IMG/VR virus record: IMGVR_UViG_3300020379_000227
Span: 1-38,645 of that record
Reading direction: 5' to 3' (one strand)
Length of the DNA: 38,645 bases
Source: a virus
Lineage: Duplodnaviria; Caudoviricetes
Of this stretch, positions 8,256-38,327 are shown in pieces (the first letter of the stretch is position 1; every line of letters starts with the position of its first letter). The notes beneath the pieces are model-generated. The model was not told the DNA's origin and searched no databases. It worked only from the letters and a program-made list of their open reading frames with translations. The position numbers were made by a program, and so were the translations under genes.

Positions 8256-8520
8256 TTACATCCTCATTAGTTAAATGGTCCTGCTTAACAATGCCATGTT
8301 TCCTAACACTATCAAAGGTCCAGCTATATACTTTGTAATACTCAGATCCAGCTACTAACTTTTGACTGAAATCATCAGATAAAGCAGGAAGTTTAGTAAT
8401 GGTTCCACCTTTACTTTTATATGCTTCTACTGCTTTATTAACTTGTTCTCTGGAGATTAATTGACCCTTGCGTACCCTCTTGTGGGCTAATGCCCTACTA
8501 GCGAAAGTATTTTGCCCCAT
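8245..8520 (-). CDS. Small protein with SutA-like RNA-polymerase-binding motif
   Basis: SREQVNKAVEAYKSKGGTITKLP resembles the SutA helix-GG-strand pattern; RBS GAGGG; first gene after a sigma70-like promoter. Confidence 0.55.
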   Translation of the reverse strand: MGQNTFASRALAHKRVRKGQLISREQVNKAVEAYKSKGGTITKLPALSDDFSQKLVAGSEYYKVYSWTFDSVRKHGIVKQDHLTNEDVSAS

Positions 8521-8568
8521 AACCCTCTTAATATAATCTTGCAGAAGTGCAAGTATGTGAAGTAATGT

Positions 8569-8632
8569 CGAACTAGCAGTAATGGCAAAAGCGGAAACTT
8601 AGTTGTCGCTTGAGATGTAAACTGGAAGTTCG
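8569..8632 (-). promoter_or_regulatory. Long imperfect hairpin in a 5' leader
   Basis: Nested complementary blocks CGAACT/AGTTCG, CAGT/ACTG, AAGCG/CGCTT; separate small hairpin CTTGCA/TGCAAG at 8538-8553. Confidence 0.6.
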
Positions 8633-8647
8633 TAGATATGAAAAAAC

Positions 8648-8676
8648 ACCATGGCACAAGCTAATTTACTTGTCAA
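8648..8676 (-). promoter_or_regulatory. Host sigma70-type promoter upstream of the SutA-like to RNAP gene block
   Basis: TTGACA (8676-8671), 17 nt, TG.CATGGT extended -10 (8653-8648). Confidence 0.6.
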
Positions 8677-8845
8677 CCCCTTCATCCATCTTTTTTATTT
8701 TTTCTTCTATTGCTTGCTCTACAAAAGTTTTAAGAGGTATATCTAACTGATTTTTCAGCATAAACATTTTAGTTTCTCTTACGAGTTTTCGGGATAACAC
8801 TACATTGATAACCGAATTTCTGTATTCATCTTGCATTATTTTCAC
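8666..8845 (-). CDS. Ribbon-helix-helix DNA-binding protein (59 aa, not in ORF track)
   Basis: MKIMQDEYRNSVINVVLSRKLVRETKMFMLKNQLDIPLKTFVEQAIEEKIKKMDEGVDK; alternating strand INVVL then two amphipathic helices; AGGAG upstream; alternative ATG at 8836. Confidence 0.7.
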   Translation of the reverse strand: MKIMQDEYRNSVINVVLSRKLVRETKMFMLKNQLDIPLKTFVEQAIEEKIKKMDEGVDK

Positions 8846-8905
8846 ATACTCCTATGGTTATAGATCCTACCTATAGATCCTTTCTATAGTTGGGAATTAG
8901 AGAGA

Positions 8906-8930
8906 GAGGGGTGCGTGAGAAACACCCCTC
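8906..8930 (-). terminator. GC-rich hairpin directly after the recombinase stop
   Basis: GAGGGGTG / CACCCCTC 8-bp stem followed on the minus strand by TCTCTCTAATT rather than a U-tract; may be a processing hairpin instead. Confidence 0.45.
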
Positions 8931-8936
8931 AACTTC

Positions 8937-9512
8937 CTACATTATGTTAAGTGCTTCCGCTTTGTTCAAAGCATCCTCTGCACTAATATTCAAATAAAGA
9001 GAAGTAGAAGCAACATTAGAATGCCCTAATAGTTGTCTACACGTTTCTATATCCCTAGTTTTACCATATACAATACTAGGTTTGGTTCTACGTAAGCTAT
9101 GACTAGAATACAGTTCCCAATCTAATCCTGCTTTGTAGGCTATTTCTTTTACTATATTCCGATACATCTTATCACTAAGAGGTTTCAGGTTACCCAGCTT
9201 GTCCGTTGCTCTACTTGGGAACAAAGGCTCATTGCTTTCTAGTTTTCGGGTTCTTACCCATCGATCTACCAGATCCATAGTGAACTCTGATAGTCTACAT
9301 GAAACTCGTCTAGATGTTTTCTTCTGCTTGATCTCTATGTTCTTGCGAACTCTACCATGAGAATCAATTAAATCTTTTACCCTAAGATTTATTAAATCAA
9401 CACATCTAAGACAAGTGTCAACATGGACACAAAATAAAAGTTGGTTTCTACCATGCAGGTTAGCACGTATCGCAAGGATCTGTTCCTGTGTAAAAGGCTT
9501 TTTTTGAGGCAT
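8937..9512 (-). CDS. int: Tyrosine recombinase/integrase, catalytic domain only (191 aa)
   Basis: Catalytic set R (CLRCVDL), K (QKKT), HxxR (HSLRRT), H (LLGHSN), Y (TSLYL). Confidence 0.93.
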   Translation of the reverse strand: MPQKKPFTQEQILAIRANLHGRNQLLFCVHVDTCLRCVDLINLRVKDLIDSHGRVRKNIEIKQKKTSRRVSCRLSEFTMDLVDRWVRTRKLESNEPLFPSRATDKLGNLKPLSDKMYRNIVKEIAYKAGLDWELYSSHSLRRTKPSIVYGKTRDIETCRQLLGHSNVASTSLYLNISAEDALNKAEALNIM

Positions 9513-9750
9513 TTTCTTGAGCTAGTTGAGAGATTAGAGAGAATAAATAGTTTTCGGGTTGAAGTTTTCGGGGTGGAGGATGTTTGTAGGTATGTGCTTT
9601 TGTCCTTCTGCGATTTGCCCCTCTATGATTATTTTGTCTAAATTTCATAAATAAATTCTGTAGATGAGATTTAGTTTTCGGGCATCCTGCCAAGTTTTCG
9701 GGTCCATCCCTTAATTACACTCCAGAGAATGCAATTAAAAAAGAGATCAG

Positions 9751-9779
9751 ATTAGAAAAAAATATAAAAATATTGTCAA
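9751..9779 (-). promoter_or_regulatory. Host sigma70-type promoter upstream of the recombinase
   Basis: TTGACA (9779-9774), 17 nt, TCTAAT (9756-9751); AT-rich upstream tract. Confidence 0.55.
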
Positions 9780-9806
9780 GAAAAAAATTAATTTAGTAGA
9801 TACGAA

Positions 9807-9846
9807 ACCCTTGAAACATACGAATATTATACCATGTTCCAAGGGT
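9807..9846 (-). terminator. Intergenic hairpin (terminator or RNA processing site)
   Basis: ACCCTTG-AAACAT ... ATGTTC-CAAGGGT, downstream of the 97-aa gene. Confidence 0.5.
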
Positions 9847-9870
9847 CTGAGGAAGGAAAAGAGAAATGAA

Positions 9871-10164
9871 TTATCCTAAATCGAAATAAACTTTTATTTC
9901 AGTTAATTCCCGCTCTCCAGATTTGAGTAAAGCAGATTTAAAAAGTTTATCGTCAATGTAAAAATGAAAACTTCGATCACCATTTGGTAGATCCCTGCAC
10001 GTTGTACGATGAGACAGAAAATGATGAGAGTTTTTTGAACTAGTTCCTACTCTTATTTCTGTATCAGAATGTTTTTTAATTCCAAAACTTTTGTTTCCTG
10101 TTCCTCTGCCATGATTAGCATAGGCACAAGAATCAATCTTACACCAGATTGGATATTGTCGCAT
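9871..10164 (-). CDS. Early hypothetical protein
   Basis: RBS AAAAGGA and leader motif upstream; 97 aa. Confidence 0.8.
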   Translation of the reverse strand: MRQYPIWCKIDSCAYANHGRGTGNKSFGIKKHSDTEIRVGTSSKNSHHFLSHRTTCRDLPNGDRSFHFYIDDKLFKSALLKSGERELTEIKVYFDLG

Positions 10165-10270
10165 AGCATCCTTTTAATTGAGAATTAGAGAGTTTTTAAA
10201 ATGGTCTGAGAATAGACCTTATTGACCTATCATCAATGACAGATCAAAAAATTCAATTCTCAGTAGAAAC

Positions 10271-10309
10271 AAAAAACCCCAGAGAATACAATTAGATTCC
10301 CTAGGGTTT
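10271..10309 (-). terminator. Probable intrinsic terminator
   Basis: Minus strand ACCCTAGGGAAT...ATTCTCTGGGGT stem followed by a T-tract. Confidence 0.55.
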
Positions 10310-10333
10310 GAATTAAATAGAATTTGGTATGAA

Positions 10334-10558
10334 TTAGAATTCACCCCTCATGAATGGTTCATCTACTTGTGGAACTTCTAACCTACCATCATTTACATAT
10401 ACATAATTTCGAGTAATTCTATTTTTAAAAGGAATTAAACCTTTCAGATTATCTGTCATTAACATGAATTCTTTATAATCTAAATGCTTGTAATGTTCGC
10501 TTTCTTCTATTGCTTTTTCCAGTTCCCAAAAAGCTACTTCAATTGTTACTTTATCCAT
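10334..10558 (-). CDS. Early hypothetical protein (74 aa, MDKVTIEV...)
   Basis: ATG at 10558 overlaps the stop of the upstream 45-aa ORF; ORF track extends it to a TTG at 10609. Confidence 0.75.
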   Translation of the reverse strand: MDKVTIEVAFWELEKAIEESEHYKHLDYKEFMLMTDNLKGLIPFKNRITRNYVYVNDGRLEVPQVDEPFMRGEF

Positions 10559-10688
10559 TATCTTGCTCAATAAAAGGTTTTGTATATTTCTGGTATAGAT
10601 CCCTTTCAATGCGGATCAATTCGCCAATGATTCCCAAACCTAAAATTACTGTTGAGATTAAAATTATGATTTCGAGTTTCCTTTGCAT
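10551..10688 (-). CDS. Small single-pass membrane protein (45 aa, not in ORF track)
   Basis: MQRKLEIIILISTVILGLGIIGELIRIERDLYQKYTKPFIEQDNG; RBS AAAGGT and leader motif upstream. Confidence 0.7.
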   Translation of the reverse strand: MQRKLEIIILISTVILGLGIIGELIRIERDLYQKYTKPFIEQDNG

Positions 10689-10756
10689 GATTGTACCTTT
10701 GAGAGAATTAGAGAGAACCCTAGGATTTAAAAGAAAACCCTAGGGATGAAATTAAA

Positions 10757-10924
10757 CTAGTTATACTTAGTGCATTTGCCGTAAAGTAATTCCATTTTAA
10801 GTTTACCATTCTTTACTTTGAGTGAATGGTTTTCTCTTTCTAATCTAGTTATTCTTTCCATGCTGGAAATTACATTATTGATCAGAAGTTTATTTTGTGT
10901 AATGGCTCGCATTTCAGTTGACAT
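10757..10924 (-). CDS. Small coiled-coil-like early protein (55 aa, not in ORF track)
   Basis: MSTEMRAITQNKLLINNVISSMERITRLERENHSLKVKNGKLKMELLYGKCTKYN; RBS GAAAGGT and leader motif upstream. Confidence 0.7.
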   Translation of the reverse strand: MSTEMRAITQNKLLINNVISSMERITRLERENHSLKVKNGKLKMELLYGKCTKYN

Positions 10925-10997
10925 AAATACCTTTCATATAATGAGAATTAGAGAGAACTAGGGAACCTTAATTGATTCCCTAGGTAATGAAATAAGA

Positions 10998-11255
10998 TTA
11001 AGCAGGGAAAGCCCGAACGGATTTGCCTACAAGTTGAGGTGCAAATTTATCTTTAGCACCAGATATAACTGTATCAATGTCGAGATTATCAGCATCAGCT
11101 TTAAATCTCTTTTCAGCATCTGTTCTAGTTGATGCTTCTATTTCTACTGTACTACGTACAATCTGCTTGCATTCAAATTCAACCAAGAATTTTTTTAAAC
11201 CTGAAGCTACTGTTTCGAGTGCTTCTACTTTTTCTTCTACTTTATCTTTTCCCAT
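10998..11255 (-). CDS. Early hypothetical protein
   Basis: RBS AAAAGGA and leader motif upstream; 85 aa. Confidence 0.8.
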   Translation of the reverse strand: MGKDKVEEKVEALETVASGLKKFLVEFECKQIVRSTVEIEASTRTDAEKRFKADADNLDIDTVISGAKDKFAPQLVGKSVRAFPA

Positions 11256-11420
11256 AATATTCCTTTTGATATGAGAATTAGAGAGAATCAGAATAAATTA
11301 ATTTTTACCCTGAGAACACAACTATAGTTAATTGTGTTCTTCGGATACCCTAGGACCATAAATCGGAAAAGATCAGATGAAACTTTCAACGCTATTATAA
11401 TCCTAGGGAATGAATTAAAG

Positions 11421-12344
11421 TTATGCTGTTTCCATTTCTTCCAATCTTTCTTGCATTTCTAAATTTGATCTCTCTTGATCATTTAGATCACTTGGCATTT
11501 CTGAAACTGGCATTGTCTCAAACTCATCATCACTCAATTCAATAATACTACTTGTGTCCAAGTTAACTATATTATCCATCATTCCGCATAGTTTTATGTT
11601 TCGAGTAGTGACTTGATCAAGATTCTTATAGCACTTAAAACTTTCTGTAAAAGCATTATTAAGTGACCATAAGGTTCTAGGTTTGAATTCGTCATGAGTT
11701 GAACTTTGTGAATCTTCTGTCATACGCCATTCATTTAAAACCTTGTAAAGGTTAGAAGGTGATAAAACACCAGCATCACAAGCACGTACACAAAAATCAT
11801 GAACCCATGAATCACTTTCTACTTTTCTGCTTTTATATGCTTCTATTCTTTGATCATTAATATCATCTAAGAATTTAAGTTGTTCTACTGCTTTAAGAAT
11901 TAAATTAGGCAAACGTAGGAATATATTTTTTGTGTGCCTTGTTTTTACTACAATCTCACCAGAAAAAATAAGATTAGAACAAACTGTGATCCTAGATCCA
12001 CCAGCTAATGCAACTGGGAATTTTTTGTCATGGGAATTTCGATAGGCAATAATACTTTTATAATCTGCATTATGCTTATCATAATAAACGTCACAAATCC
12101 CAAACATCCGATTATGATCATGAGTTGTGCCTTGTGTAAAATTACTTAGCTCAATTCCAATATTATTAGCACTCTCTGTGATGTATTTAAGGACATCACT
12201 ATGTGGAACAGTTTGATGAGTGATGACACCTAAATCATTTTTTTCAGGTGCTGGTGTCGGAAGTGATTCAAGTTCAGCAAGACCAATGTCCAAACCTAAA
12301 CCATAGTTAGTCAAACGTGTGTTTGATTGTGTCAACTGTGTCAT
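11421..12344 (-). CDS. DUF932-family (phage/plasmid leading-region) protein with acidic tail
   Basis: YRNSHDKK...GSRITVCSNL, ..RHT, TLWSLNNAFTE match the DUF932 pattern; first gene after the early promoters. Confidence 0.8.
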   Translation of the reverse strand: MTQLTQSNTRLTNYGLGLDIGLAELESLPTPAPEKNDLGVITHQTVPHSDVLKYITESANNIGIELSNFTQGTTHDHNRMFGICDVYYDKHNADYKSIIAYRNSHDKKFPVALAGGSRITVCSNLIFSGEIVVKTRHTKNIFLRLPNLILKAVEQLKFLDDINDQRIEAYKSRKVESDSWVHDFCVRACDAGVLSPSNLYKVLNEWRMTEDSQSSTHDEFKPRTLWSLNNAFTESFKCYKNLDQVTTRNIKLCGMMDNIVNLDTSSIIELSDDEFETMPVSEMPSDLNDQERSNLEMQERLEEMETA

Positions 12345-12405
12345 GGTGTACCTTTCTTTATATTGAGAATTAGAGAAACACGTTAATCTAAATGACTAAC
12401 GTAAG

Positions 12406-12436
12406 ACCATGTTATTATATGCACATGGTTTGTCAA
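12406..12436 (-). promoter_or_regulatory. Early sigma70-type promoter overlapped by a palindrome
   Basis: TTGACA (12436-12431), 16 nt, TAACAT (12414-12409); inverted repeat ACCATGT (12406-12412) / ACATGGT (12423-12429). Confidence 0.6.
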
Positions 12437-12517
12437 TAGCAGAAAGTGAATTTATTTACAAAACACCTGAAATCATTGAAGAAATATTATTTATCCCAGA
12501 AAACCCCGATATTCACC

Positions 12518-12586
12518 TATCTTGTATAAGATGAGAACCTTGAGGATATCTTGTATCTTGTATAGGAATCTAATTGTTATCTTGTA
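12518..12586. repeat. Four direct copies of TATCTTGTA
   Basis: At 12518, 12547, 12554, 12578. Confidence 0.85.
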
Positions 12587-12595
12587 GAATGTCAA
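12567..12595 (-). promoter_or_regulatory. Early sigma70-type promoter
   Basis: TTGACA (12595-12590), 17 nt, TAGATT (12572-12567). Confidence 0.65.
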
Positions 12596-12599
12596 TTAG

Positions 12600-13133
12600 A
12601 TATAAGGTGTCCTAGGTATCCATGGTATTACATTTGTAATCTGGTTTAACTTATGTAAATAAGATTAATGAAATGAAAAAACGATAGTATAAATAAATGG
12701 ATGAAAATTTAATTTAATTCTCTACAAAAACAATTAAGTTGATTCCTAGTAGTTTTGCCCGTCTGCTAACTTATTGAAATCATTACTATTCGTATTTCCG
12801 TTTTGGATAAAACCGGAAACTAAGGATCTTTGAGGGGGGCCAAGGGGGGATTTCGGGGTACACATACGTAGTAAGGTATTCAAATTTTTGCACCAAATTA
12901 TTTACAGTCATACAGAATACCGAACCCCATAGGATACAGTCTATAGTACCCTATATTTAAGTATACTCTAGTAGACCCATGGATATGGGAATCATAAGAC
13001 ACAGATTAAAAGCAAAAGAAGTAAAACTAAAGTACCTTACCAATGGTATACCCTAAGTATACCTATAGTATACCCTAGGTATACCCAAGTATAACTAAAG
13101 TCTAGTTCAAGGTACTACTTTCTACTACTTCTA
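12600..13133. other. Non-coding region expected to contain the physical genome ends (direct terminal repeat)
   Basis: Only long non-coding stretch, between terminase stop and early promoters, as in T7; includes G-run block 12832-12858. Confidence 0.7.
13046..13099. repeat. Five tandem ~11-bp units GTATACCYWAR
   Basis: GTATACCCTAA GTATACCTATA GTATACCCTAG GTATACCCAA GTATAACTAAA. Confidence 0.85.
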
Positions 13134-14837
13134 CTAATGATTACTACTGCTAAAATAAGTATACACAGGTTCCCCTAGGCTCTTAGGTTTACTAAGGTAT
13201 GCCTTACTACCCTCCATAAAGTTCTCTAGTTCCATGTCTAATGCTTCTTCTTTTTGTCTATTACTTTCTACTTGTTGATCAGCACCTATCTGTTCTATCC
13301 AGTATCCTATTGCCATACTGAGAGCATCTAGTCTGTCATCATGTCTTAGTGATCCCCTCTCCCTAGTTATCCTAGTCATCTGGTAAAACAGTTGCTTCCT
13401 CAAGGAATCCTCAACATTGTACTCTTTAGTAGACTCATAGTCCTCTGTAATAACATTGGTATCCACTATAAGTCTATGTTGCATCATTACTGGTTCTAGG
13501 GTATCAATAATTCTTCTTTCTTTTTGTGTGTTACTTCTTACTTCTTCTATCCCAACAGGATATATTCTTTTTAGATGTGGTTTTAGTAACTCACTAAACA
13601 TACCATCCCCAAAGTTACTCTCAACTAGTACCAGATTTACCTTGTAACCCTTTGCCAGTTTAACAAGGCTTGTCATTACCTCATCAGAGTACCCCCCACT
13701 AAACCCTCCTGCTTTACATAGGTACAAGTTACCATTCAGCATTTTGACAATAGCAAAAGCAGTCTCATCCTTACCTCTGCCACTAGGGTCTATACTCATG
13801 ACAGACCCAGTATATTCTTGCCACCCACTAGGTAAATCTAGAGGACCATACCAACCATCCCCAGCTAGACCAACATTAGGTAGATCACTTAGTTTAGTAT
13901 GGTTTAATCTTCCTGCTATTACTTCTTGCGGACCTTTATCTTTAGGTATATCCATAACTATTAGGTCTTGTGTCTTTAATGGATACCTATCTGCATCAGA
14001 AAGACTGGTATCCAGCATAAACTGAAGACTAAACCCTGCTCTCCCATAACTTAGTTCTCTTTCTTCTAGATCATAGCTATCAAATCTATCTGGATCTGTA
14101 GGTGACCCAGCTTCTCCCTTATGGTTTAGTATGTAGTCACTTAATCGTGTCCCATACTTCTCTTTTAGTTTCTGATCTGGAACTCTGGCACACCAAATCT
14201 TTAACTCATATCCTCTCTCTGGCAGTACCTCATAGAGTGTCTGTTCACTCTGAGGTGTACCTAAGAATATAATCCTCCCACTAGGCTTTAGAATAGCATC
14301 AAATTCCTTCACAGACTCCGCTATACGATCCCTCATCCCTTGAGTCATGGAGTTATTTGGTACTTCTATATCATCAGCAATAATTAAGTCTGCTCTGGAC
14401 CCTGCCATTTGACCCGTAATACCCACAGATTTTACAGAAGGTGCGTGAGCAGGGGTAGAAGGGCCAACATCGAAAGAAATTTTACTCTGCCTCTGGTGGT
14501 CGGAGGGACGTAAATGTTGTAGCACAGGCATTTCTAAGATCAATCTCTGGGTAAATGTACTAAAATCATCTGATCTTATTTTACTTGCACTAACAACTAA
14601 TATCTTTGTCTCAGGATTCTTTAATAGACTAAAGCAACAATAAGCAGAAGTAATATAACTTTTACCTATACCCCTAAATGCCTCAATGACTAGTCTACGT
14701 GGACCTTCTTCTAGGTATGTAGCTATATCTTGTTGGATTGGGGTTGGTTGTGGAAGATGTAGGTGGTTCCACACATGGGAGAGGAATATCGGGAACGTAA
14801 GTCTATCTAGTAACTCTGCTTCAGTTGCAGTTGTCAA
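13134..14837 (-). CDS. terL: Terminase large subunit (T7 gp19-like)
   Basis: AFRGIGKS (Walker A), GSRADLIIADDIE (Walker B), LGTPQ, nuclease IDPSGRGKDE, HDDRLDAL. Confidence 0.98.
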   Translation of the reverse strand: MTTATEAELLDRLTFPIFLSHVWNHLHLPQPTPIQQDIATYLEEGPRRLVIEAFRGIGKSYITSAYCCFSLLKNPETKILVVSASKIRSDDFSTFTQRLILEMPVLQHLRPSDHQRQSKISFDVGPSTPAHAPSVKSVGITGQMAGSRADLIIADDIEVPNNSMTQGMRDRIAESVKEFDAILKPSGRIIFLGTPQSEQTLYEVLPERGYELKIWCARVPDQKLKEKYGTRLSDYILNHKGEAGSPTDPDRFDSYDLEERELSYGRAGFSLQFMLDTSLSDADRYPLKTQDLIVMDIPKDKGPQEVIAGRLNHTKLSDLPNVGLAGDGWYGPLDLPSGWQEYTGSVMSIDPSGRGKDETAFAIVKMLNGNLYLCKAGGFSGGYSDEVMTSLVKLAKGYKVNLVLVESNFGDGMFSELLKPHLKRIYPVGIEEVRSNTQKERRIIDTLEPVMMQHRLIVDTNVITEDYESTKEYNVEDSLRKQLFYQMTRITRERGSLRHDDRLDALSMAIGYWIEQIGADQQVESNRQKEEALDMELENFMEGSKAYLSKPKSLGEPVYTYFSSSNH

Positions 14838-32167: not shown

Positions 32168-33151
32168 TCAACTACCAGTTGCACGTGCAAGGTAGCAACA
32201 TTCAGGACGTAGTACACCATGTCCGACAGCCATCTTTGCTACCAGTAATGTACCTTGTCTACGAATGTCATATTCGCTCTCTGTTTGCAGATTCATAAGT
32301 TGTACAGTACCTACAGCACTTTTATGAAAAGCAAGAAAACGAGTATTACCAAGTGCGGCCGCATTGTTAGCAGTACCATTACCAAAATAGGTGTTATTTT
32401 CACCAGCAGTAGCACTACTAGTATTTGCAGAAGGCATATGGTTTGATACCAAAATAGTGAAACCAGCAAGCCTAGGCATATTAGCATTAGCTACATCACC
32501 TTGACCTCCATAGTCACGATTTACTGCTTTTGTTGAATCAAGAACATCATAAAAATCTTCAGGATCTAATACGATATACCTGTCATCTTTAGGAATGTCT
32601 AATTCATCAAACTTTTGGGCAGAATCAAATATTCTAGCAACTTTTTTATCACTAGTATTGTAGTCTGCATCATTAACTGCAATAGAACTTCCACCACCAG
32701 ATCCACTATTAGTAATAGTAGTAGTAGTATTAGCACCAATATGTACTAATTTAAGAAGATTCTCGTCCATTCGCTTAGACAATGCTCGTCCCATTTCTGT
32801 ACTGTAGACACTACGTACATCATAGTGGGATCGTGCTTCATCTAACTTATCAATGAACACATGGGAAACCAAAAGATCATCAATAGTAATAACCTTTTCG
32901 TTTTGTTGAGGAAGAGTAGCACCAGCAAGTTCAGATCCAGGTGAATGATATGAAGCAGTTGTCTTACCAAACACAGGGAATTGTGCGGACTTACCAGAAC
33001 TAATTGTTCGTTTCATAGTACGTGAAAGCATTACATTTGCTTCTTCAAAGGCAGTAATAGTTTCACCACTAAATACTTTTAAAAATAATGCATCATCAGC
33101 GTTAGCATTATTTACCATACCTATTCGGTTTGGTGTTGAAGCGGAAGCCAT
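32168..33151 (-). CDS. Major capsid protein (T7 gp10-like)
   Basis: ALFLKVFSGE, RTISSGKSAQFP..G, ITIDDLL, YDVRS.YS.EMG.AL, GHGVLRPEC. Confidence 0.98.
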   Translation of the reverse strand: MASASTPNRIGMVNNANADDALFLKVFSGETITAFEEANVMLSRTMKRTISSGKSAQFPVFGKTTASYHSPGSELAGATLPQQNEKVITIDDLLVSHVFIDKLDEARSHYDVRSVYSTEMGRALSKRMDENLLKLVHIGANTTTTITNSGSGGGSSIAVNDADYNTSDKKVARIFDSAQKFDELDIPKDDRYIVLDPEDFYDVLDSTKAVNRDYGGQGDVANANMPRLAGFTILVSNHMPSANTSSATAGENNTYFGNGTANNAAALGNTRFLAFHKSAVGTVQLMNLQTESEYDIRRQGTLLVAKMAVGHGVLRPECCYLARATGS

Positions 33152-33168
33152 AGTTATTTTCCTATATG

Positions 33169-33245
33169 ATTAATGTTAAGGTACGACATTAATTACACCT
33201 TAGTCACTAATCACAACAAGTTGTCTTTCCTCAGAAAGGCTTGTT
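33169..33245 (-). promoter_or_regulatory. Structured leader upstream of the capsid gene
   Basis: AACAAG-CCTTTC TGAG GAAAG-CTTGTT stem-loop, plus overlapping alternative stems TAAGGT/ACCTTA and ATTAATGT/ACATTAAT. Confidence 0.5.
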
Positions 33246-33247
33246 AA

Positions 33248-34012
33248 TTACATGACATTGGAGTTCGCAAGTTTGTCGTGAACTTGCTTTCTAAAAGAAG
33301 GATCATCTTGGTAACGTGGATCTTTCATGTCCTGTGTTACTTGTGCCATAGAAGTATAGGCACTCGATGAATTTGTTCTTTGACCTTGGATTAAATTTGG
33401 GGCCGATCCAGTACCCATCTGGTATCGTGCATGAAGAGAATTAACTGCAAATTTAGCAGTCTCTACATTATTAAGGTCAACATTAGCATTGAATACATTT
33501 ATCTCATCTTGAGATAGATTATCTTTTGCCCAAGCAGTCATTTTATCATAAGTATCCTGACCACCAACTAAGTTGTAAACAGACTGTTGTATTAGTTCTG
33601 ATCTAGCTTCTTGTCCATCTATAAAATCATCTACAAAACTTTTTGGGATACCCGCCTCTTCCAACGCTTGATACGATTCATTAGAAAGTTCCCCTTCTCT
33701 CGCATACTCAGCAGAAAGAGTTCCAAAGTCCAGTCCCTTAGCCTCCACATATCTTTCAGCTTCCTCCAAAAATTCCTCATTTTCATCAGAGGAAACATCA
33801 TCAGATTCTTGAGATCCTTGGGATAACTTTTGTTCCAGATTTTGGTAAGCATTGGCTAGATCCTCTGGTGAATTAAATTTCTCTGGTAACCACTCTGGTC
33901 TGTCAAATTGTTCTTCTACTACTTCTCCATCAGCAAGAGAAGCCATTGCTTCATCATGACCTTCAGGTGGTTGTGTGTTTTCTTCTGGTGGTACTGATAC
34001 TTGATCTACCAT
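33248..34012 (-). CDS. Capsid scaffolding protein (T7 gp9-like)
   Basis: RPEWLPEKF, AY.NLE.KL, VGG...Y..M..WA..NL, M.DPRY..DP.FR..V..KL. Confidence 0.95.
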   Translation of the reverse strand: MVDQVSVPPEENTQPPEGHDEAMASLADGEVVEEQFDRPEWLPEKFNSPEDLANAYQNLEQKLSQGSQESDDVSSDENEEFLEEAERYVEAKGLDFGTLSAEYAREGELSNESYQALEEAGIPKSFVDDFIDGQEARSELIQQSVYNLVGGQDTYDKMTAWAKDNLSQDEINVFNANVDLNNVETAKFAVNSLHARYQMGTGSAPNLIQGQRTNSSSAYTSMAQVTQDMKDPRYQDDPSFRKQVHDKLANSNVM

Positions 34013-37475: not shown

Positions 37476-38327
37476 CTATGGGGTTGGGTAATTTATCCCT
37501 AATAAAAGATCCTTATAACCATTTAAATCTGTTGTATCCCCTTCTCTTTGTATTCTTGTCAATCTTGCATTTAACAATGCTTGTTGATTTGTGTAACCAT
37601 GTTTTTCATAGGTAGGTAACACAACATCATCCCACATATTTTTAACATCGAATGGTGGTACATCCCATTGTTCTTCATTTCCTATTCTATCTAACAAAAG
37701 TTTTTTTGCTCTCTTCATTCCCAAACCTTTGACACCTATTATATTATCTACAGTATCCCCAGCTATGGTTTGGCACATCCAAGATAAATTAGCTTTATTT
37801 TCTGTTATTTCTATCAACTCATCTTTTATATAATGTAATCCTGGTACTGTTTGTAGATCCTTATCAATAGTCACACATACTGCTCTGTTGTTCTGTGTTT
37901 TTACTGGTGGTTCTACTTCCCATAGTTTTGCATAAGGATCTTTAGCAGTAATAAACTCACCTATAATATCATCTGCTTCATACCCATCTTGTTCTATATT
38001 GTACTGATATACATAACCTAATCTTTCTCTTATTCTCCTGAGACACAAAGGTTTCCTCTGGTCTACTCTGTTCATCTTGTACTCAGGATAAATTTCTTTT
38101 CTAAAATTGTTTTTATGTGACCAACAAAGAACAGGAATAACTGTAGGATCTCTTTCTGTATCTCTAAACCCTTCTACTATTTTAGTAATGGTATCTATTG
38201 CTATATGAGTTGCTTCTTCTTCTGAACTCCAGAGTGTCCAAAGATCCTCATCCCATTTAACTGCTTTCTCTGCATTGAAAGCTGATCGGTATGCTACTAT
38301 GTCTGCATCTATTGCTAGTATCGTCAT
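37476..38327 (-). CDS. 5'-3' exonuclease (T7 gp6-like)
   Basis: IDADIVAY, NFRK...P.YK.NR, YEADDIIG, DKDL..VPG, GDTVDNI.GV.G.G; start at 38327 by TAATG coupling (ORF track 38345). Confidence 0.95.
   Translation of the reverse strand: MTILAIDADIVAYRSAFNAEKAVKWDEDLWTLWSSEEEATHIAIDTITKIVEGFRDTERDPTVIPVLCWSHKNNFRKEIYPEYKMNRVDQRKPLCLRRIRERLGYVYQYNIEQDGYEADDIIGEFITAKDPYAKLWEVEPPVKTQNNRAVCVTIDKDLQTVPGLHYIKDELIEITENKANLSWMCQTIAGDTVDNIIGVKGLGMKRAKKLLLDRIGNEEQWDVPPFDVKNMWDDVVLPTYEKHGYTNQQALLNARLTRIQREGDTTDLNGYKDLLLGINYPTP

What the first reader, a model, noticed from the sequence alone, without database searches (positions are those of the whole stretch)
8880..12405. Cassette-like early gene array: seven units each delimited by the same motif (usually with a hairpin), including a minimal tyrosine recombinase
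Seen: on the coding strand, early genes or gene pairs are separated by a unit of the form stop - (T)TTCAT-like box - hairpin (often CCTAGG/CTAGGG arms; 10273-10309, 10718-10745, 10958-10983, 11348-11408) - TCTCTCTAATTCTCA - AAAGG RBS - ATG. The motif occurs at 8892, 9528, 10180, 10703, 10943, 11273 and 12365, and I did not see it elsewhere. Loop lengths vary while arms and motif persist. The recombinase itself sits between two copies. Known: T7 separates early genes with RNase III hairpins, but not with a near-identical leader; T4-type PeSL cassettes shuffle genes by recombination between repeated regulatory units; integrons use hairpin attC sites with a tyrosine recombinase. Inference: this may be a phage gene-cassette system for swapping host-takeover or anti-defence genes, by homologous recombination or by the adjacent recombinase. 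A purely post-transcriptional role (processing site plus pyrimidine-rich translation enhancer) is a serious alternative.
Basis: partly seen in the sequence, partly recalled or inferred. Interest (0 to 1): 0.82.

Follow-up and report, generated by a model that had tools for sequence, protein, structure and literature searches.

The report
Hairpin-leader joints between phage early genes
An uncultured marine T7-like phage puts the same short sequence, usually behind an RNA hairpin, in front of seven early genes; relatives keep all seven in the same order while swapping the genes between them, so it is likely a reusable messenger-RNA signal rather than a recombinase-driven gene-cassette system.

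Summary
The repeat is real: seven coding-strand copies of CTCTCTAATTCTCA in the first 3.5 kb of early genes (0.73 expected by chance), six behind hairpins. Three complete relatives (80-98% RNA-polymerase identity) and all partial ones keep every covered copy in the same order. No unit was lost, duplicated or moved, no attC ends exist, and contigs of 8 runs show no motif-to-motif junction, so an integron-like system is not supported. Genes are replaced in place, and 5 of 13 mapped boundaries lie at a motif. Hairpins rely on G-U pairs on the mRNA strand, and the motif tracks the next start codon. It is most likely an mRNA processing and translation-start signal, like T7's early sites. T7 also repeats a 10-nt tail, but has a lower stem that these units lack. 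Unexpected: beside the recombinase lie six CCCGAAAACT direct repeats flanking a hypervariable, in-frame leader ORF that overlaps the recombinase start. This is a better candidate target for the enzyme. Host and function are untested. The scan has noted this kind of array on other phages. Verdict: new variant of a known kind, interest 0.38.

The parts
12567..12595 (-). [quoted passage not shown]
   Evidence: consensus match only
12409..12436 (-). sigma-70-like promoter match (TTGACA-16-TAACAT) just before unit 1
   Evidence: TTGACA kept in L005, L017, L018, not in L006, L007
12364..12403 (-). unit 1: 10-bp hairpin (12379-12403) followed by motif copy 1
11421..12344 (-). 307-aa DUF932-like gene in the slot of T7 gene 0.3; alleles 55-97% identical swap among relatives
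   Evidence: weak Pfam match E 0.006, below cut-off
11272..11408 (-). unit 2: three hairpins (11348-11408, about 11314-11341, 11288-11313) and motif copy 2
10998..11255 (-). 85-aa gene, present in all relatives that cover the slot
10942..10983 (-). unit 3: 10-bp hairpin with AATWAA loop and motif copy 3
10757..10924 (-). 55-aa gene; two diverged alleles exchanged between units 3 and 4
10703..10745 (-). unit 4: 11-12-bp CCCTAGGG hairpin and motif copy 4
10334..10688 (-). 45-aa gene (10551-10688) and overlapping 74-aa gene (10334-10558); the second is replaced by unrelated genes in relatives
10179..10309 (-). unit 5: terminator-like hairpin with U-run (10274-10309), long irregular hairpin (10206-10263, absent in L007 and L029) and motif copy 5
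9871..10164 (-). 97-aa gene; replaced by a GP88-family gene (PF17338) in L003, L006, L007, L029
9774..9843 (-). conserved hairpin holding an extended -10 (TG-N-TATAAT, 9826-9834) and a TTGACA at 9774-9779: likely promoter(s) of the recombinase unit; no motif here
   Evidence: read from sequence; untested
9549..9702 (-). four CCCGAAAACT direct repeats (9693-9702, 9673-9682, 9563-9572, 9549-9558) around a hypervariable 100-nt spacer (9573-9672)
9460..9648 (-). 62-aa leader ORF with swappable N-terminal half; runs through copy 6 and overlaps the recombinase start in another frame
9527..9541 (-). motif copy 6 (variant, no hairpin)
8937..9512 (-). 191-aa tyrosine recombinase, catalytic domain only; R36, H138, R141, H164, Y173 present; carries a CCCGAAAACT box at 9241-9250
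8891..8930 (-). unit 7: hairpin 8906-8930 (two covarying types among relatives) and motif copy 7
8666..8836 (-). 56-aa gene, possibly a ribbon-helix-helix DNA-binding protein (pattern judged by eye, not confirmed); carries a CCCGAAAACT box at 8784-8793
   Evidence: monomer model shows two helices and no strand

Best explanation
The seven units are likely messenger-RNA signals, not recombinase sites: a hairpin that would protect the 3' end of the upstream gene's message, then a single-stranded UCUCUAAU tract that a host factor likely recognises to start the next gene. Shown: the sequence, its strand, its place, its conservation, and the hairpins' dependence on G-U pairs on the mRNA strand. Inferred: host RNA polymerase reads the early genes as long transcripts from sigma-70-like promoters; a single-strand-specific host endonuclease (RNase E type) most likely cuts just 3' of the stem and gives each gene its own short-leader message, with the pyrimidine tract also serving as the ribosome landing site; I cannot separate cutting from ribosome loading. 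Secondary and inferred: because the units are the conserved islands between variable genes, ordinary homologous recombination between co-infecting relatives swaps alleles or unrelated genes in place at them.
For: Layout equals the T7 early region: terminase, non-coding end, promoter matches, small genes, RNA polymerase. All seven copies kept in order in 3 of 3 complete relatives (L005, L006, L007) and at every covered slot of the partial ones. The coding-strand fold is the more stable in 37 of 39 hairpin regions; all 39 use G-U pairs, against 2 of 39 template-strand folds (related genomes, not independent). The terminator-like hairpin loses its second CCTAGG but still pairs through G-U, which argues against a double-stranded DNA site. 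The motif tracks the next start codon (CTAAT to ATG 16-30 nt at copies 1-6), persists without a hairpin (copy 6) and without a Shine-Dalgarno site (GP88 alleles; recombinase in this genome), while its distance from the hairpin varies from 2 to 17 nt. T7 repeats a comparable hairpin plus 10-nt tail before early genes, and its early precursor holds five RNase III signals (PMC3867540, passages). A different repeat, ACCCCATAGGA or ACCGCATAGGA, is conserved at three middle/late sites in 3 of 3 genomes compared and fits the phage polymerase promoter better.
Against: No RNA data show a cut or a transcript end. T7's five sites all have a lower stem (-4.4 to -8.9 kcal/mol); only 1 of 35 unit hairpins tested reaches that range, so these are not T7-type RNase III sites. 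The motif is only moderately unpaired in folding (mean 0.47-0.83 per unit). At copy 7 the start codon lies 53-65 nt away. An invariant 8-nt core is more sequence-specific than RNase E or S1 sites usually are (recalled). Covariation in the unit-3 stem is not significant alone (79 of 500 shuffles reach it). The host is unknown.
Confidence: 0.57

Rival explanations
1. The hairpins are leaky intrinsic terminators and the motif is a boxA-like RNA site for host Nus factors or a phage antiterminator, giving a lambda-like stepped early cascade.
For: Four unit hairpins score as terminator-like (7 found, 2.6 +/- 1.6 by chance); 3-8 U in the first 8 nt after the stems, 8 of 8 at unit 4 of L007 and L029; slot 5 lies behind a clear terminator without its own promoter match. 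boxA sites can sit 6 nt from a Shine-Dalgarno site (PMC5725501, passages). T7 carries a boxA-consensus match at 813 (the label is recalled).
Against: The motif fails the gamma-proteobacterial consensus GYTCTTTAANA at several positions; the host's own boxA is unknown; the motif would lie inside the terminating hybrid, too late for an antitermination signal at its own hairpin (inference); copy 6 has no hairpin.
Confidence: 0.17
2. The motif is an asymmetric double-stranded DNA operator (stoperator-like) for the 56-aa protein or another regulator that silences the leftmost genes.
For: One orientation, confined to the leftmost genes, the recombinase and a small putative regulator; the core is invariant. 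Asymmetric 13-bp stoperators are known in mycobacteriophages (PMC3203893, passages).
Against: Fixed distance to the start codon and G-U-dependent hairpins point to RNA; the CCCGAAAACT boxes, which cluster round the promoter and inside both genes, look more like the DNA sites; the fold of the 56-aa protein is unconfirmed.
Confidence: 0.09
3. The units are PeSL-like terminator-plus-promoter cassettes in which the motif is a promoter for the phage or host polymerase.
For: Hairpin, conserved word, ribosome site and start codon follow the PeSL order (PMC4122927, first third read); copy 7 ends in an ACTATAG that recalls T7-type promoters (recalled).
Against: No sigma-70 match centred on the motif; the bases after it vary in length and can be C-rich (L007, L031 copy 6); no copy stands before middle or late genes, where a different conserved repeat does.
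Confidence: 0.07
4. One reading: the units are recombination sites of the adjacent tyrosine recombinase, which excises, inserts and reorders gene cassettes as an integron does.
For: Intact recombinase between copies 6 and 7, conserved at 75-98%; 5 of 13 boundaries at a motif; unit hairpins are paralogous, so units did spread by duplication at some time.
Against: [quoted passage not shown]
Confidence: 0.04

Closest known systems
Processing signals between the early genes of coliphage T7 (R0.3, R0.5, R1, R1.1, R1.3)
   Same: Same genome position, polycistronic early message from host-type promoters, 9-12-bp hairpin after the stop codon followed by a repeated pyrimidine-rich tail and the next ribosome site.
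   Different: T7 sites have a lower stem below an internal loop; 34 of 35 unit hairpins tested here do not reach T7's range. The repeated word is different and can stand without a hairpin.
PeSL cassettes of T4-type phages (PMC2839356, PMC4122927)
   Same: Repeated intergenic regulatory units with stem-loops at which variable early genes are exchanged.
   Different: PeSLs carry an early promoter and give deletions and mini-circles between two copies; here no promoter in the motif, no unit lost or gained, only replacement at the same slot; T7-like, not T4-like, phage.
Start-associated sequences (SAS/ESAS) of cluster K mycobacteriophages (PMC3203893)
   Same: 13-14-nt asymmetric word in one orientation just before start codons of non-structural genes, often with an upstream inverted repeat; function untested.
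   Different: SAS contain the Shine-Dalgarno core; this motif lies upstream of it. ESAS inverted repeats do not keep RNA pairing, whereas these hairpins do.
Integrases upstream of the RNA polymerase in marine T7-like pelagiphages (10.1101/410191)
   Same: Tyrosine recombinase with intact R-H-R-Y residues in the early region before the RNA polymerase gene.
   Different: This enzyme is catalytic domain only (191 aa); no tRNA gene, no attP core and no prophage were found.

Membership tests
T7-type RNase III early processing site | lies between early genes of a polycistronic message in a T7-like phage | tested here: met
T7-type RNase III early processing site | upper stem of about 11 bp (minimum for reactivity, PMC1540722 passages) | tested here: inconclusive
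   stems of 9-12 bp at units 1-4 and 7; longer at unit 5
T7-type RNase III early processing site | lower stem below an internal loop | tested here: not met
   5 of 5 T7 sites at -4.4 to -8.9 kcal/mol, 1 of 35 unit hairpins in that range; only the long hairpin of unit 5 (10206-10263, not among the 35) has this shape
T7-type RNase III early processing site | RNase III-dependent cleavage | not testable with these tools
   needs host and RNA end mapping
Integron (IntI/attC) | attC ends RYYYAAC ... GTTRRRY (consensus recalled) | tested here: not met
   none in 7 spacers, both strands
Integron (IntI/attC) | IntI-family integrase | tested here: not met
   TIGR02249 34 bits against cut-off 265, last 70 residues only
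Integron (IntI/attC) | variable number and order of cassettes | tested here: not met
   fixed in 3 of 3 complete and all partial relatives
PeSL | stem-loop terminator plus early promoter in each unit | tested here: inconclusive
   terminator-like stems yes, promoter match at the motif no; host promoter type unknown
PeSL | deletion or insertion of a gene between two copies, leaving one copy | tested here: not met
   not seen in relatives or in contigs of 8 runs; rare circles (about 1 in 100,000 virions for PeSL) would be missed
PeSL | gene exchange boundaries at the unit | tested here: met
   5 of 13 boundaries at a motif
Nus-factor boxA site | GYTCTTTAANA consensus (gamma-proteobacteria) | tested here: not met
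   core TCTCTAAT differs; the consensus of the unknown host could not be tested
SAS (start-associated sequence) | asymmetric repeat, one orientation, at starts of non-structural genes | tested here: met
SAS (start-associated sequence) | contains the Shine-Dalgarno core, 3-7 bp from the start codon | tested here: not met
   motif lies upstream of AAAGG, CTAAT 16-30 nt from ATG
Tyrosine recombinase (PF00589) | catalytic R-K-H-R-H-Y residues | tested here: met
   R36, K62 or K65, H138, R141, H164, Y173; invariant R, H, R, H, Y in 9 sequences
Known RNA family (Rfam, ribozymes included) | match at gathering score | tested here: not met
   none at gathering score in window 8500-13300 or in 11 related loci

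The most novel reading that the evidence does not exclude
Probability: 0.08. Interest if true: 0.8.

Novelty: new variant of a known kind. Interest (0 to 1): 0.38.

Why it matters
It shows a T7-like lineage that standardises the gaps between its host-takeover genes with one RNA signal that is not a classical RNase III site, and that these gaps double as exchange points for variable genes. This gives a ready list of candidate anti-defence genes and a testable new ribonuclease or ribosome recognition word. The box-flanked hypervariable leader beside a catalytic-only recombinase is unexplained and would matter more if the enzyme makes the variation.

Tried and rejected
No RNA holder listed among sequencing runs; the one RNA run from the same sample laid 0 contigs: no evidence either way. 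Pairing of the motif with the 5' end of 16S rRNA: a GTDB scan gave 120 loci, 13 of them 16S starts (12 Bdellovibrionota-like with a shared leader, 1 marine Dehalococcoidia); all match only 11 of the 14 motif bases, so rejected. Prophage or host: no recombinase relative in GTDB representatives, no tRNA; host remains unknown. Motif in distant DUF932 loci: no array in 18 loci at 27-40% identity. Hairpin-motif pattern in IMG/VR: 6 of 7 hits are these relatives, 1 is chance. Tandem CCCGAAAACT in IMG/VR: 7 of 15 hits are these relatives, 8 are unrelated repeats. Ribozymes in the slots, a lead from earlier scan notes: none. Monomer folds of the 56-aa and 85-aa proteins were uninformative; the weak Pfam hit of the 85-aa protein to the hibernation factor family (E 0.01) was not supported. 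The far end of record G001 belongs to unrelated genes, so its early array could not be completed. A consistent anti-Shine-Dalgarno lower stem was suggested by some folds but holds only at some units. Literature searches showed no paper on this motif or lineage in their listings; most subscription papers are not in the library, and no supplements were opened.
Full report
Setting. The window is a complete circular virus record with a 123-nt end overlap. It encodes a T7-type RNA polymerase, primase-helicase, capsid, portal, nozzle and terminase, all on the - strand. The best cultured phages reach only 33% polymerase identity. After the terminase comes a non-coding stretch with sigma-70-like promoter matches at 12595 and 12436, then small genes, the recombinase and the RNA polymerase: the layout of the T7 early region. 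The host is unknown.

Observation. Six copies of the motif match at 0-1 mismatch on the coding strand between 8892 and 12378, against 0.73 expected; the seventh, at 9528, is a variant. The listed hairpins exist. The unit is less uniform than described: the TTCAT box is not conserved, copy 6 lacks a hairpin and here a ribosome site, and at copy 7 the start codon is about 60 nt away.

Relatives. Scans of IMG/VR and metagenome contigs gave three complete arrays other than this genome's own (L005, L006, L007; RNA polymerase 98, 90 and 80% identical) and partial arrays in L001-L004, L017, L018, L021, L025, L026, L029, L031, L032. L024, L028 and L030 repeat the window, L006 and L007, and some partial loci may be pieces of one phage, so they are not all independent. 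Every covered slot has its motif, in the same order. The core TCTCTAAT is the same in 39 of 39 distinct instances; my search pattern contained it, so the real test is that no slot was missed. The motif was not found as an array in 18 distant DUF932 loci.

Gene exchange. Genomes 98% alike elsewhere carry DUF932-like alleles only 55-58% alike. I mapped 13 distinct boundaries from alignments and contig joints. Five lie at a motif: start of the DUF932 allele, both ends of the slot-3 allele, start of the 97-aa/GP88 replacement, and a mosaic at unit 2 in L029. One lies at the terminator-like hairpin upstream of copy 5. Seven lie elsewhere: inside the DUF932 3' end, the end of the 45-aa gene, the hairpin after slot 5, both ends of an in-gene deletion in L003 at a short AAAGGAAA match, and both ends of the box spacer. 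This tally is by eye and is no test of a hotspot, since viable swaps are bound to end in conserved gaps. The motif-free early genes vary too: one slot is present, absent or replaced among 12 genomes. No unit was lost, duplicated or moved. Contigs of three DNA runs holding this genome show no joint; four runs with relatives show 7 joints, none a clean deletion between two motifs, plus one stray row not ending at motifs. Contigs drop rare variants, so PeSL-like circles at 1 in 100,000 (PMC2839356, passages and section 16 read) would be missed.

RNA or DNA. The coding-strand fold is the more stable in 37 of 39 hairpin regions and always uses G-U pairs; template folds do so in 2 of 39. Unit 7 has two stem types that differ on both sides; the unit-3 stem is always paired but its covariation is not significant. 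The motif follows the start codon (16-30 nt at copies 1-6) more closely than the hairpin (2-17 nt, or none) and stays when the Shine-Dalgarno site is absent. It is only moderately unpaired in folding (0.47-0.83). T7's own early hairpins share a 5' TCAAGG and a 3' CCTTTATGAT at three of five sites, so a repeated tail is not new. But all five T7 sites have a lower stem and only 1 of 35 unit hairpins reaches that range; an 11-bp helix is the minimum for E. coli RNase III (PMC1540722, passages) and these stems are 9-12 bp. So the units work like T7's signals but are not members of that class. A separate repeat at 37484, 28602 and 22712 is conserved in all three genomes compared and is the better candidate for the phage promoter. 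No Rfam family matches.

The recombinase. It is a catalytic domain with intact active-site residues, matching Xer profiles only from about position 95-125 on, 75-98% identical in relatives. Short recombinases of this size occur in unrelated phages, and an integrase before the RNA polymerase is usual in pelagiphages (10.1101/410191, passages). No attC ends exist in the spacers. A second motif suits it or the neighbouring 56-aa protein better: CCCGAAAACT occurs six times within 8784-9702, all on one strand, nowhere else in the window (0.02 expected), and 6-9 times in the same area of the two near-complete relatives. Between two boxes lies a spacer of 1-126 nt that differs among nearly all relatives. 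An ATG-started frame overlapping the recombinase start exists in 9 of 10 loci tested, always in the same frame. The four unrelated long spacer types are all open and in frame; by shuffling, the chance of being open is 0.10-0.24 each, besides the shared frame. Ten database proteins share the C-terminal half and vary in front. Whether this is an attachment site, an operator array or a leader peptide control is open.

Mechanism and odds. mRNA processing and translation-start signal 0.57; leaky terminators with a boxA-like site 0.17; DNA operator 0.09; promoter cassette 0.07; recombinase cassette sites 0.04; the rest unassigned. Use as passive boundaries for homologous exchange is compatible with all of them. 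Names recalled without a call: RNase E and S1 preferences, the attC consensus, the ribbon-helix-helix pattern, the R0.3-R1.3 labels.

Known or new. Closest are T7's early processing signals (PMC3867540, passages), PeSLs (PMC4122927, first of three parts read) and start-associated sequences (PMC3203893, passages). Listings of searches showed nothing on this motif; supplements were not opened. Earlier notes of this scan describe hairpin-leader arrays of the same kind on other phage DNA (unchecked, no support); none shares this sequence. Verdict: new variant of a known kind, interest 0.38.

Noticed in passing
window 8784-9702 (-): Six CCCGAAAACT direct repeats, two inside genes, flanking a hypervariable spacer and an in-frame leader ORF that overlaps the recombinase start; looks like an attachment site or operator array.
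   Followed up: partly
window 37484, 28602, 22712 (coding strand) and 12924 (opposite strand): ACCCCATAGGA / ACCGCATAGGA, conserved at the three coding-strand sites in G002 and G003; candidate promoter of the phage RNA polymerase.
   Followed up: partly
whole window: Strong avoidance of palindromic sites (GGATCC 0 against 12 expected, GGTACC 0/9, CTGCAG 0/9, AGATCT 2/19) suggests a host with many restriction systems.
   Followed up: no
window 11421-12344: DUF932-like gene stands where T7 has its anti-restriction gene 0.3 and swaps alleles among close relatives; candidate anti-defence gene.
   Followed up: partly
window 8866-8892 (-): A small hairpin after copy 7 holds AAAGG in its loop and changes on both sides in L007 and L031; the real start codon lies further on.
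   Followed up: no
window 33151-33250 (-): The 100-nt gap before the capsid gene is nearly identical in G002 and G003 and holds a hairpin; possible RNA element or promoter.
   Followed up: no
window 12900-13200: Palindrome-rich non-coding stretch (GGTATACC, CCTAGG repeats) after the terminase, probably the terminal-repeat region.
   Followed up: no
L020 (G001:C1:1-9000): This record joins unrelated virion genes to the relative's genome; it may be a chimeric assembly.
   Followed up: no
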